Source: Pecten maximus (lineage: Eukaryota). Taken from it: DNA of 64,000 nucleotides. The position numbers are program-made. Below, piece by piece: positions 30,001 through 33,000 of the stretch (position 1 is the first letter of the stretch; each line of letters starts with the position of its first letter). The stretch lies in assembly GCF_902652985.1 (NCBI RefSeq), contig NC_047022.1, positions 22,754,001 through 22,818,000 of the forward strand, read 5' to 3'.

Positions 30001-33000
30001 TTTTTTTTTCTTAATATGACGCGACATGCTTCTGAACATTATTTATAGTTTAGCACAGAAATTCATGCAGTTTTATGACACATTTAAGAGTAGTTTATTA
30101 TTTAATGAAACAATCCAAATATCTTGAGACAACGAAGGAAAGTAACCATGGAAATGATATGTTCTGCAGTAGTTGGGTTGAACATCTTGCACATTGTAGT
30201 GGATTTTTTTTGAACTATATTTTAACATTTTTTGAAGACAGTGCTTTCGTCTATATCTGGTTAACTATGTATGTACTACGTAAACATGAAATACTAATTG
30301 AATTAACCTGAATTTTACGCTTCAGTGATTTGTTCAAGATAATTATAATGGTGACAGACGTTCGAATTCAGAAATATTTTTCATTTTTTGTTTTGTTTCA
30401 TTATGTGAAATACTAACATGTGGAGCTAAATTGATGGTGCTTTCAGAAATTAGCATGATATCCATGCAGTACTCGATTAGGTATTGTGTATTATGATTAA
30501 ACTAGAAGAAACGTCCTGATATTTTTTTATTGATATCAACATCAATATCATATGAAGTGCCGTCTCCATTTCAGAAGAAACCCCACAATGAACACCTACA
30601 TCTGTCTGGCTTCATGCCTTTTGGTGGCCGTAAGCGCTGCAGGTAAATCGTGCAATACAGCAAACCGAACCTAATATCATCTTTTTAACATTATTTGAAA
30701 CATATTCTTATATCAATGAATTACTAGTAACTCACTTTGAAGAATTCATGGATTATCTTTAAGACTTAGCGATTGTAAATGTCAATGCACAAATATTTTT
30801 GACAGTACAAATAACATATATGACTGTGTTGCTCGAACTGTACGGCGGAGAGTTCTCATCTAGAATTGGCTATGTACCCATGTATACTATACTTATCTGT
30901 AAGTTTACCAACACTCCGTATCCTGAGCTGATTGTCAAAACGGAAGTGATTTTGGGATCTTTTGTTTTTCTCGGGTTTGTGGTTAAGAATTATGTACAGA
31001 CATTATGTATACCTACATGACATATAAGTTTATTGTACCTGTGTAATCTAATACGTGTATCTTTGACAGGTTATGGAAGTGGATCCGGAAATGGATTTGG
31101 TAATGGCGGCGGAAATGGATTCGGAAACGGAAACGGTTACGGAAACGGCAATGGCGCCGGAAATGGAGGATCTGGATTTGGACGTGAGTGTGAATTGAAT
31201 AGATTGCAGAAGTGAATAATATGTTTTGTGAAGAATAACATATCGTAAGATCGATAAACTAGTATATATATTTAAAGATATGTTTATGTTAGTGAATGCT
31301 TCAGCCGATATTATAAGTAACAGAATTTGCATATCACACTTGAAGCTACCTGGGTATCTAACAAGATGTATGGTATCTATATTATATTATATTTATTGTA
31401 TTAATATATATTAATCTATATTTTGTTTATGAGAATTTAGATTTACCCTGATCGGATTGAATTTTGAAGTTGAATTGAAGTTTAAAACAAGTTTTTTGTA
31501 CAAATTATCAAAAAATATCAACGCTAATTTTGTTCTTTTATTTCAGGATATAGAAGAGCAGGTGGGTATCAACGATTTTCATGTCGTTTGTTTCCTTTTG
31601 TCGATTGAAATTAGGTTTTCCCTATATGTAATTATAGATATGATATCATTATGTGTCAAAATCAAGAACCTTCTGATCGAAGTTTGTACTTAGAATTAAC
31701 AAATGACTCCACTGAAATGAAGGTTATAGTAGCATATTACTGTTGAAACTATTGTTCAATGATACATACGATATCAGCTCATTTATCTACTATCAATATA
31801 AATGTTTACCCTAGGATACGGAGGTGGTGCCGGAAGTATGGGCGGAGGATTTGGTGGCTCTGGAATGGGAGGAAAAGGTGGATTCGGAGGAATGAACGGC
31901 GGCGGATTCGGAGGAATGAACGGCGGTGGAATGGGAGGAATAAACGGCGGTGGAATGGGAGGAATGAACGGCGGTGGAATGGGAGGAATGAACGGCGGTG
32001 GAATGGGAGGCAAAGGAGGATTCGGAGGGATGAACGGCGGTGGATTCGGAGGAATGAACGGAGGCGGATTCGGAGGAATGAACGGCGGTGGAATGGGAAG
32101 CAAAGGAGGATTCGGAGGAATGAACGGCGGTGGATTCGGAGGAATGAACGGAGGCGGATTCGGAGGAATGGGCGGTGGAATGGGAGGTGGAATGGGCGGT
32201 GGAAAAGGTAGTTACATAATTGTCGGTTTTTTATTATCCACGTTTGGCGTTTCTACCGGTTCTATTATATGAAATAGTTATGATATTATTTAATTATACT
32301 ATTTTTAATAATACTTCGATATTATATTATTCATGATGATCAATTGCAGCTTTACGTGCTTTGATTATTTTGTAAATGATAAAACGCACATATTATACTT
32401 GACTTGTGTATTGAATTCTAACCAGGTATGCCTTGTTTTACTTCCAGGATATTAGATGACCTGCTTGTCCCTTTGCTATTTTACATAATCATAATGTAGA
32501 TACAAATAAAATATTTAAATATTCCATTTTCTTGTTTGTATATGTTTATTTTTATCGAACATAGAGGAATCTTTATTACCGTATGTTCGAGTACAACAAA
32601 TTAAAAATACAGTGAAACGTATCATGAACAACTTGATAATTCGATGTCCCTATGCAATTTAGCTCCTAGTACAATAGGCGAGGATTGCTCTAGAGTGTTC
32701 TCTGACGTTTTTTATTGACGGTAATTCCATTTCCATCTTAACTTCCATCTCAATGTCGCTGCTTATCTGACTTGGAGAAGTTGAAATTATCAGGGAAGAA
32801 AACGCATTGTCATTCTTTGACCTTTTCCTCGCGAGCGATTTAACATTGGTGTTGACTTGTTCAGTTTCTTTGTCCCAGGATATTGTGGGCGAGGATGGTG
32901 ATGGACAATCATGTAAAGCCAGCAAGTAAATGCTTTCTTTTCTTTTAAATAAAAAGTGTCGTTTTGTGAGTTGTTATTCATAAGTATCCCTGCTTCAACG

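What the first reader, a model, noticed from the sequence alone, without database searches (positions are those of the whole stretch)
30588..32455. All-phase-1 exon cassette design allows a splice-controlled processing switch
Seen: every coding intron in all six genes is phase 1 and every internal exon length is a multiple of 3 (96/12/678; 465; 114/15/393; 114/15/348; 114/15/387; 108/21/270). Inference: skipping exons 3+4 gives a B-type abductin exactly; skipping only the microexon gives an uncleavable Gly-Asn/abductin fusion (..FG-R-YGGG); skipping only exon 3 leaves GYRRA without the P4 Arg. One gene could thus make cleavable, uncleavable and short forms. B may be a genomic fixation of the skipped form.
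Basis: partly seen in the sequence, partly recalled or inferred. Interest (0 to 1): 0.65.

Follow-up and report, generated by a model that had tools for sequence, protein, structure and literature searches.

The report
Abductin gene cluster, all phase-1 introns
This is a tandem cluster of six scallop-type hinge-rubber (abductin) genes whose introns all split codons the same way, which the glycine-rich sequence itself predicts, so the uniform phase is no sign of a splicing switch.

Summary
Six abductin-family genes lie in the window.

It is not more than chance plus ancestry. Equal phases and lengths divisible by 3 are one fact. The six genes are paralogues sharing at most four intron places. 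Inside these coding exons, 156 of 158 AG|G sites (31 of 31 AG|GT) already lie in phase 1.

The skipping arithmetic is correct, but nothing here shows that skipping happens. The proposed remnant search in the short gene's intron found nothing. It had no power, because introns that are certainly homologous are already unalignable.

Five genes most likely encode constitutively spliced precursors:
- a signal peptide;
- a Gly/Asn module;
- a microexon carrying R-Y-(R/K)-R;
- a Gly/Met abductin module;
- a terminal Tyr.

The basic motif is kept in the most divergent paralogue, with a synonymously varying Arg codon, which fits a furin-type cleavage site. Tropoelastin (all exons phase 1:1) and ApoER2 exon 6B (a spliced furin-site mini-exon) are the known precedents. 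Transcript and protein data are needed.

The parts
29408..29432 (+). Conserved core-promoter motif of g3: AGAYTTCCGT, 7 bases, then a TATA-like TGTATAWA.
   Evidence: 6 matches in the window, 0 expected. One lies 0.9-1.95 kb upstream of each of the six ATGs, in the gene's orientation. Alignment.
29460..29503 (+). Inferred non-coding first exon of g3. The start is approximate, about 30 nt after the TATA. The end is at donor 29503|GTGAGT.
   Evidence: Searches show the donor after the conserved promoter. An acceptor-like AG lies 13 nt before the ATG (exon 2 starts at 30575). There is no transcript evidence.
30588..30642 (+). g3 signal-peptide coding exon: 55 nt, 18 codons plus 1 base, ending G|GT.
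   Evidence: Tyr4, Cys6 and Cys10, with Tyr20 as the first full codon of the next exon, as the reviews describe for abductin.
31070..31183 (+). g3 Gly/Asn/aromatic-rich exon: 114 nt, phase 1-1. It ends with C, so the next codon is always Arg.
   Evidence: Against g6 it shows 3 synonymous and 0 non-synonymous codon differences plus one 6-nt indel, while the flanking introns barely align.
31547..31561 (+). g3 microexon: 15 nt, phase 1-1. With the preceding C it encodes R-Y-R-R-A.
   Evidence: The motif with its acceptor occurs 4 times in the window against 0.11 expected. g1 has a 12-nt counterpart encoding R-Y-K-R.
31815..32207 (+). g3 abductin-repeat exon: 393 nt, phase 1-1, built of 24-nt and 90-nt repeats.
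   Evidence: 63% Gly, 15% Met, seven GGFGGMNGG repeats. Its only Tyr is the first full codon.
32448..32455 (+). g3 last coding exon: completes a Gly codon, then Tyr, then stop.
9539..12101 (-). g1, the divergent paralogue. Exons: 12101-12044, 11612-11517 (96 nt), 11144-11133 (12 nt, R-Y-K-R), 10745-10068 (678 nt) and 9552-9539.
   Evidence: The big exon is 58% Gly, 32% Met and 3.6% Pro. It has the same intron places and the same C|GN Arg split as g3-g6.
23114..24601 (-). gB, the short canonical-type abductin gene. Exons: 24601-24547, 23995-23531 (465 nt) and 23121-23114. Its single internal coding intron is 24546-23996.
   Evidence: It has six GGFGGMGGGX repeats. Y4, C6, C10 and Y20 match the published description.
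41841..43650 (+). g4, a recent tandem copy of g3. Exons: 41841-41895, 42329-42442, 42795-42809, 43063-43410 (348 nt) and 43643-43650.
52332..54190 (+). g5, a recent tandem copy of g3. Exons: 52332-52386, 52820-52933, 53297-53311, 53565-53951 (387 nt) and 54183-54190.
62390..63845 (+). g6, an older copy. Exons: 62390-62450 (61 nt), 63012-63119 (108), 63348-63368 (21, R-Y-R-R-A-G-G) and 63576-63845 (270). The last exon lies beyond the window.

Best explanation
The window holds a tandem family of six co-regulated genes for abductin-type hinge-ligament elastomers of a scallop-like bivalve.

Why every intron is phase 1 (shown):
- Each intron sits after the first base of a G|GN, C|GN or G|CN codon.
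- In a coding sequence that is 50-59% GGN codons, that is almost the only place where a splice-site consensus can occur.
- The arrangement was then inherited through gene duplication.

Gene layout (shown as sequence):
- Five genes (g1, g3-g6) encode a signal peptide, a short Gly/Asn/aromatic module, R-Y-(R/K)-R on a dedicated microexon, a long Gly/Met module and a C-terminal Tyr.
- One gene (gB) is the canonical short form without the first module and the microexon.

How it most likely works (inferred):
- The exons are spliced constitutively.
- A furin-type proprotein convertase cuts after R-Y-(R/K)-R in the secretory pathway.
- Once the basic residues are trimmed, both modules carry Tyr near both ends, ready for cross-linking.

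In-frame skipping is possible, as in any gene with equal phases, but nothing indicates that it is used.
For: - Exon table, splice sites and phases.
- Compositional null: 156 of 158 AG|G sites and 31 of 31 AG|GT sites in phase 1.
- One family: the promoter motif occurs 6 of 6 times upstream of the genes, with 0 expected. g3, g4 and g5 are 92-98% identical tandem units.
- Abductin identity: gB has Y4, C6, C10, Y20 and six GGFGGMGGGX repeats, and the big exons are 58-67% Gly. This matches the descriptions in PMC9999432 and PMC13052691 (passages).
- The microexon is real and constrained. Its motif gives 4 hits against 0.11 expected. The basic motif is kept in g1, whose signal exon is only 31/55 identical to g3's. 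The first Arg codon is C|GA, C|GG or C|GT, which is synonymous variation.
- The Gly/Asn exon shows 3 synonymous and 0 non-synonymous differences between g3 and g6.
- Symmetry of ends: in g1, both modules would end G-G-R-Y.
- Phase-1 excess at signal-peptide cleavage sites is known (PMC1626468, abstract start in the listing).
Against: - There is no transcript or protein evidence of any kind, so the exon models rest on sequence alone.
- No cleavage predictor or signal-peptide predictor was available.
- R-Y-(R/K)-R could instead be a Tyr/basic cross-linking or hinge element that is never cut.
- About 80 nt downstream of the microexon are somewhat better kept between g3 and g6 (27 and 25 of 40 identical, against about 15-22 elsewhere). 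This could be a splicing regulatory element and so fits regulated inclusion as well as constitutive recognition.
- The reviews I read describe only the short form.
Confidence: 0.6

Rival explanations
1. One reading: inclusion of the microexon and/or the Gly/Asn exon is regulated. One gene then makes a cleavable precursor, an uncleavable fusion and a short gB-like form. gB is that short isoform fixed as a separate gene.
For: - All three products stay in frame.
- The basic motif sits alone on a 12-21 nt exon. Its first Arg is built across the junction.
- The microexon donor GTGGGT in g3-g6 is the least consensus-like donor together with GTAGTT.
- There is modest conservation downstream of the microexon.
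- A spliced mini-exon carrying a furin site is a known mechanism in ApoER2 (PMC7410921, passages).
- Tropoelastin uses phase 1:1 borders for cassette splicing (PMC12554196, passages).
Against: - Equal phase is predicted by composition, so it carries no weight.
- In g1 all four donors are GTAAGT.
- Among g3, g4 and g5 the introns around the microexon are no better kept than the others: 6/101 and 3/100 variable columns, against 18/433.
- A dedicated short gene and 3-4 near-identical long genes already exist side by side, which lessens the need for isoforms.
- Introns are short (253-561 nt), which by general knowledge favours intron definition and easy microexon recognition.
- No remnants were found in gB's intron, though that test lacks power.
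Confidence: 0.12
2. The long genes are spliced constitutively but not cleaved. The Gly/Asn module stays as the N-terminal domain of the mature protein, and the Tyr/Arg/Lys microexon is a cross-linking or hinge element. This would resemble the short cross-linking exons that alternate with elastic exons in tropoelastin.
For: - Every exon after the signal exon begins with Tyr as its first or second full codon. The only Tyr of each big exon is at that spot.
- Tyr and Lys are the residues proposed for abductin cross-links (PMC9999432, passages).
- Tropoelastin alternates elastic and cross-linking exons.
Against: - The motif is a full R-X-(K/R)-R in 5 of 5 long genes, with synonymous variation in the first Arg codon. 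A Tyr cross-link site alone would not require that.
- g3-g6 have no Lys in the microexon.
- The end symmetry G-G-R-Y in g1 is explained by cleavage plus trimming.
Confidence: 0.2
3. Some of the models are wrong or dead. The microexon or the Gly/Asn exon is not used in mRNA, or some of the near-identical copies are untranscribed duplicates.
For: There is no expression evidence. g3, g4 and g5 are very recent copies. g6 is cut by the window end.
Against: - All six keep the promoter motif, intact frames and GT..AG sites.
- The exons are far better kept than the introns between g3 and g6.
Confidence: 0.06

Closest known systems
Abductin of the bay scallop, as described in reviews (PMC9999432 and PMC13052691; passages read). 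The original 1997 paper was not read.
   Same: gB has a 19-residue hydrophobic start with Tyr4, Cys6 and Cys10, then Tyr20. It has GGFGGMGGGX repeats, about 60% Gly, high Met and almost no Pro.
   Different: - gB would be 175 residues, not 136.
- g3-g6 use a GGFGGMNGG variant and carry an extra Gly/Asn module plus a basic microexon that the reviews do not mention.
- g1 has Met/Pro-containing repeats and none of the decapeptide.
- No direct sequence comparison was possible.
Tropoelastin genes (PMC12554196; passages)
   Same: [quoted passage not shown] The exons are Gly-rich and low in complexity.
   Different: No homology is implied or was tested. Tropoelastin has more than 30 exons and documented extensive alternative splicing. 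Here there are 3-5 coding exons and no splicing data.
ApoER2 exon 6B (human) / 7B (mouse) (PMC7410921; passages)
   Same: A small cassette exon whose main content is a furin consensus site, so inclusion decides whether the protein is cleaved.
   Different: It is a vertebrate membrane receptor, and both isoforms have been observed. Here only the layout is similar.
Pif precursor of pearl-oyster nacre (PMC5540247 and PMC4619886; passages)
   Same: A bivalve shell-matrix precursor cut after translation into two secreted products with different roles.
   Different: The sequence and domains are unrelated. The passages I read do not name the protease or the site.
Ligament methionine-rich protein LMP of Pinctada fucata (PMC7591529 and PMC13080008; passages)
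   Same: A Met-rich, low-complexity framework protein of a bivalve hinge ligament.
   Different: I did not see its sequence, and homology was not tested.

Membership tests
Abductin (molluscan hinge-ligament elastomer) | N-terminal region of about 19-20 residues with Tyr4, Cys6, Cys10 and Tyr20, taken as the signal peptide. | tested here: met
   Met in gB, g3, g4 and g5 (compared). g6 has a 2-residue insertion. g1 does not fit.
Abductin (molluscan hinge-ligament elastomer) | Repeats of the decapeptide GGFGGMGGGX. | tested here: inconclusive
   gB has 6, g3 has 1, and g4, g5, g6 and g1 have 0. g3-g6 have 7-8 copies of the variant GGFGGMNGG. So the feature is met for gB only.
Abductin (molluscan hinge-ligament elastomer) | About 58-60 mol% Gly, unusually high Met and about 1% Pro. 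| tested here: met
   big exons: Gly 58-67% and Met 12-32%. Pro is not among the eight commonest residues listed for any big exon except g1 (3.6%).
Abductin (molluscan hinge-ligament elastomer) | The protein is present in the inner hinge ligament. | not testable with these tools
   No expression or proteome data could be reached.
Abductin (molluscan hinge-ligament elastomer) | Alignable homology to the published cDNA. | not tested
Pfam has no family for these exons; of the 6 exon translations, 5 gave no match and one gave a single match at E 0.97, far below its cut-off.
Elastomer genes with phase 1:1 cassette exons (tropoelastin type) | All exon borders are in phase 1. | tested here: met
   21 of 21 complete coding introns.
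Elastomer genes with phase 1:1 cassette exons (tropoelastin type) | Cassette exons are actually skipped in some transcripts. | not testable with these tools
   No transcript data. Four searches on abductin listed reviews and unrelated papers; the passages I read mention no gene structure or isoforms.
Proprotein-convertase (furin-type) processed secretory precursors | R-X-(K/R)-R motif (consensus recalled) in a secreted protein. | tested here: met
   Met in 5 of 5 long genes: R-Y-R-R in g3-g6 and R-Y-K-R in g1. The signal peptide was judged by eye and only.
Proprotein-convertase (furin-type) processed secretory precursors | Cleavage at the motif. | not testable with these tools
   This needs N-terminal proteomics or an in vitro digest.
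Splice-switched furin site (ApoER2 exon 6B type) | The site is confined to a small exon that can be removed in frame. | tested here: met
   Microexons of 12, 15 or 21 nt, phase 1-1.
Splice-switched furin site (ApoER2 exon 6B type) | Both the inclusion and the exclusion isoform exist. | not testable with these tools
   No transcript data.

The most novel reading that the evidence does not exclude
Microexon inclusion is regulated across the ligament-secreting epithelium or across development. The same long gene then delivers one of two products. One is two separate Tyr-ended chains, a small Gly/Asn peptide and an abductin chain. The other is a single fused chain. The choice would tune cross-link density or mineral association of the hinge rubber. 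The short gene gB would be that skipped isoform turned into a gene of its own.
Probability: 0.1. Interest if true: 0.6.

Novelty: new member of a known kind. Interest (0 to 1): 0.3.

Why it matters
Abductin is the textbook compressive protein rubber, yet the reviews I could read know only one short chain.

If the long genes are expressed as modelled, most abductin-family genes in this cluster encode two-module precursors with a conserved convertase-type site. That changes which chain ends and which peptides should be looked for in the ligament, and which constructs biomimetic work should copy.

The uniform phase itself teaches a caution. In very glycine-rich genes it follows from codon composition, so it cannot be read as evidence of a splicing programme.

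Tried and rejected
- **Remnants of the two missing exons in gB's intron (23996-24546).** I ran 12 queries on both strands, 24 comparisons against 100 shuffles each. The best had 3/100 shuffles as good, then 8/100 and 9/100. A degenerate microexon pattern gave no hit there. I rejected this as evidence either way. Control introns g3 against g6 gave 1/100, 57/100 and 2/100, and gB's last intron against g3's gave 44/100.
- **gB's intron as a repeated element.** It has no other copy in the window.
- **Extra conservation around the microexon among g3, g4 and g5.** None was found.
- **Family and structure searches.** Pfam on six single-exon translations gave nothing meaningful: five had no match and one had a single match at E 0.97. 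A PDB sequence search with the g3 repeat exon gave 0 hits. Rfam over the window gave 0. tRNA search gave 0.
- **Pfam on five other ORFs.** Four gave nothing. The matches of ORF 7299-8126 (RtxA_C, Zn_ribbon_LapB, Podoplanin) come from translating a 27-nt satellite and are artefacts.
- **Spliced protein.** All searches were exon by exon, so what a full-length precursor would match stays unchecked.
- **Not available or not used.**
  - Genome contigs holds only bacteria and archaea, so I did not use it. Homologues in other bivalves, and the species of origin, stay unchecked.
  - Supplementary files of papers were closed.
  - I did not read the original abductin paper.
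Full report
**What is there**

The window has no N, and nothing in it looks human.

A six-frame scan for glycine-rich open stretches, followed by reading the sequence, shows six genes of one family. Two lie on the minus strand: g1 at 9539-12101 and gB at 23114-24601. Four lie on the plus strand: g3 at 30588-32455 (the gene of the finding), g4 at 41841-43650, g5 at 52332-54190, and g6 from 62390 to beyond the window end.

Exon boundaries were fixed with anchors and checked for splice sites and frame. 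Coding exon lengths are:

| Gene | Exon lengths (nt) |
|---|---|
| g1 | 58/96/12/678/14 |
| gB | 55/465/8 |
| g3 | 55/114/15/393/8 |
| g4 | 55/114/15/348/8 |
| g5 | 55/114/15/387/8 |
| g6 | 61/108/21/270, last exon off the window |

All 21 of 21 complete coding introns begin GT, end AG and are phase 1. For g6's last intron only the donor is visible. In one search I set g6's first exon one base off; the right span is 62390-62450.

**Identity**

gB encodes a hydrophobic start with Tyr4, Cys6 and Cys10, then Tyr20. It has six GGFGGMGGGX repeats, 67% Gly and 14% Met in its big exon, and a Gly-Tyr end. That is the description of scallop abductin given in two reviews (PMC9999432 and PMC13052691; passages read).

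g3-g6 have the same start and end but use a GGFGGMNGG variant, 7-8 copies each. g1 has Met/Gly/Pro repeats and a different signal exon.

Pfam has no family for any of the six single-exon translations I gave it, and the PDB has no relative of the g3 repeat exon. I searched exon by exon. The exons were never joined, so a full-length spliced protein was not searched.

Homologues in other bivalves and the species of origin therefore stay unchecked. 'Scallop-like bivalve' is an inference from the abductin features.

**One family, one promoter**

A motif of AGAYTTCCGT, seven bases and a TATA-like TGTATAWA occurs exactly six times in the window, with 0 expected. Each copy lies 0.9-1.95 kb upstream of one of the six start codons, in the gene's orientation.

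In g3 and gB a GT donor follows about 70-80 nt after the TATA. Every start codon is preceded within 9-14 nt by a good acceptor.

g3, g4 and g5 are recent tandem units of about 10.5-11 kb, 92-98% identical with introns and spacers included.

**Is the uniform phase more than chance?**

No, for three reasons.

- Equal phases and internal exon lengths divisible by three are the same fact stated twice.
- The six genes are paralogues that share their intron places, so at most four places are independent.
- Composition predicts the result, and this is decisive. These coding sequences are 50-59% GGN codons. Of the 158 AG|G sites inside the coding exons, 156 lie in phase 1 and 2 in phase 0, both in gB. 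All 31 AG|GT sites lie in phase 1.

A splice site can hardly arise here in any other phase.

A phase-1 excess at signal-peptide cleavage sites is also known in general (PMC1626468; abstract start seen in the listing). Tropoelastin, another glycine-rich elastomer, has all borders in phase 1:1 (PMC12554196; passages).

**The skipping arithmetic**

One search prints the bases on each side of every junction. Signal exons end in G. Gly/Asn exons end in C. Microexons and repeat exons end in G. Every following exon begins with two bases that complete Gly, Arg or Ala, followed by Tyr (in g1's big exon Ala, then Tyr).

- Signal exon joined to repeat exon gives Gly-Tyr and the same first eleven residues as gB.
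- Gly/Asn exon joined to repeat exon gives a lone Arg before Tyr.
- Signal exon joined to microexon turns the first Arg into Gly.

'Exactly B-type' holds for layout and ends, not for the repeat body.

**What the long genes most likely are**

The microexon is a real, constrained exon. Its sequence with its acceptor occurs four times against 0.11 expected. g1 has a 12-nt counterpart at the same codon place.

The motif is R-Y-R-R in g3-g6 and R-Y-K-R in g1. Yet g1's signal exon is only 31/55 identical to g3's. The first Arg codon is C|GA, C|GG or C|GT, which is synonymous change.

The Gly/Asn exon shows 3 synonymous and 0 non-synonymous differences between g3 and g6, plus one in-frame 6-nt indel. 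The neighbouring introns barely align.

R-X-(K/R)-R is the furin-type convertase consensus. That is recalled knowledge; quotes RXXR.

I therefore read the long genes as precursors: signal peptide, Gly/Asn module, cleavage site, abductin module, terminal Tyr. One inference supports this reading. After cleavage and trimming of the basic residues, both modules would carry Tyr near both ends. In g1 both would end G-G-R-Y. Tyr at the chain ends is what the review proposes for cross-linking. Cleavage itself is not shown.

**Evidence bearing on a splicing switch**

None is direct.

Points that fit regulated inclusion:
- The microexon donor in g3-g6 is GTGGGT, which is weak-looking.
- The first 80 nt or so downstream of the microexon are somewhat better kept between g3 and g6. 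Identity is 27 and 25 per 40 columns, against about 15-22 elsewhere.
- There is a precedent, ApoER2 exon 6B/7B, a 13-residue cassette exon carrying a furin site (PMC7410921; passages).

Points against:
- In g1 all four donors are GTAAGT.
- Among g3, g4 and g5 the microexon flanks are no better kept than other intron parts.
- Introns are short.
- The genome already holds a dedicated short gene beside several long ones.

Four searches on abductin returned reviews and unrelated papers. They were, holding 1,250 (mostly 'abducting'), 4, 12 and 5 papers. The passages I read mention no gene structure, long precursor or isoforms. The original 1997 paper and all supplements were not seen.

**Origin of the short gene**

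Twelve queries were each compared with both strands of the intron, 24 comparisons against 100 shuffles. The queries were the Gly/Asn exons, the microexons with flanks, and the introns of g3, g6 and g1. No score was convincing; the best had 3/100 shuffles as good.

The test has no power. Introns of g3 and g6 that are certainly homologous scored 1/100, 57/100 and 2/100. gB's last intron against g3's scored 44/100.

On polarity, g1 and g3-g6 share the two extra exons. gB is closer to g3-g6 (43/55 in the signal exon) than g1 is to either (31/55 and 29/55). With a clock-like root, gB lost two exons.

An alternative remains open. The microexon and the last exon both begin GA-TAT straight after the acceptor, and the Gly/Asn and repeat exons both begin G-(A/T)-TA-(T/C)-GGA. 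The Gly/Asn exon plus microexon may therefore be an old internal duplicate of a body-plus-tail exon pair. That would make a gB-like layout the deeper ancestor. An outgroup genome is needed.

**Verdict**

- The more useful result is the conserved two-module precursor layout with a convertase-type site on its own microexon, which the reviews I read do not describe.

Noticed in passing
14030-14054 (-), 25476-25500 (-), 29408-29432, 40776-40800, 51122-51146, 61515-61539 (+): A shared core-promoter motif: an ETS-like TTCCG element, seven bases, then a TATA-like box. It occurs exactly six times, once upstream of each abductin-family gene, with 0 expected by chance. This suggests common regulation and a short non-coding first exon.
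   Followed up: partly
first codons of all exons after the signal exon, e.g. 31072, 31549, 31817, 32450; g1 11610, 11142, 10740: Every exon after the signal exon starts with Tyr as its first or second full codon. The only Tyr of each long repeat exon sits there. The microexon and the last exon both begin GA-TAT in g3-g5. This hints that the exons are serial duplicates and that Tyr marks module ends.
   Followed up: partly
29180-62000: Three tandem units of about 10.5-11 kb (g3, g4, g5), 92-98% identical including spacers. Most differences are indels in the first intron (186 gap columns of 1108) and repeat-unit changes in the abductin exon (51 gap columns of 396).
   Followed up: partly
31562-31640 and 63369-63450: The first 80 nt or so of the intron downstream of the microexon are better kept between g3 and g6 than other intron parts: 27 and 25 of 40 identical. 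This may be a splicing element.
   Followed up: partly
19479-22819: Satellite of a 41-nt unit, about 81 copies at about 90% matches, lying just downstream of gB's 3' end (gB is on the minus strand, stop at 23114).
   Followed up: no
26494-28172: Satellite of a 12-nt unit (GGTAAAGTAGTA), about 142 copies. It causes the extreme GC skew of 0.76 in that stretch.
   Followed up: no
7376-8305 and 69-469: Two further satellites: 27 nt in 34 copies, and 49 nt in 8 copies. Translating the first gives spurious Pfam matches (RtxA_C and others) that are repeat artefacts.
   Followed up: yes
31877-32187, 43109-43390, 53626-53931, 63623-63837: The abductin exons are built of a 24-nt unit nested in a 90-nt higher-order unit. 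The length differences between copies (393/348/387/270) reflect gain and loss of such units.
   Followed up: no
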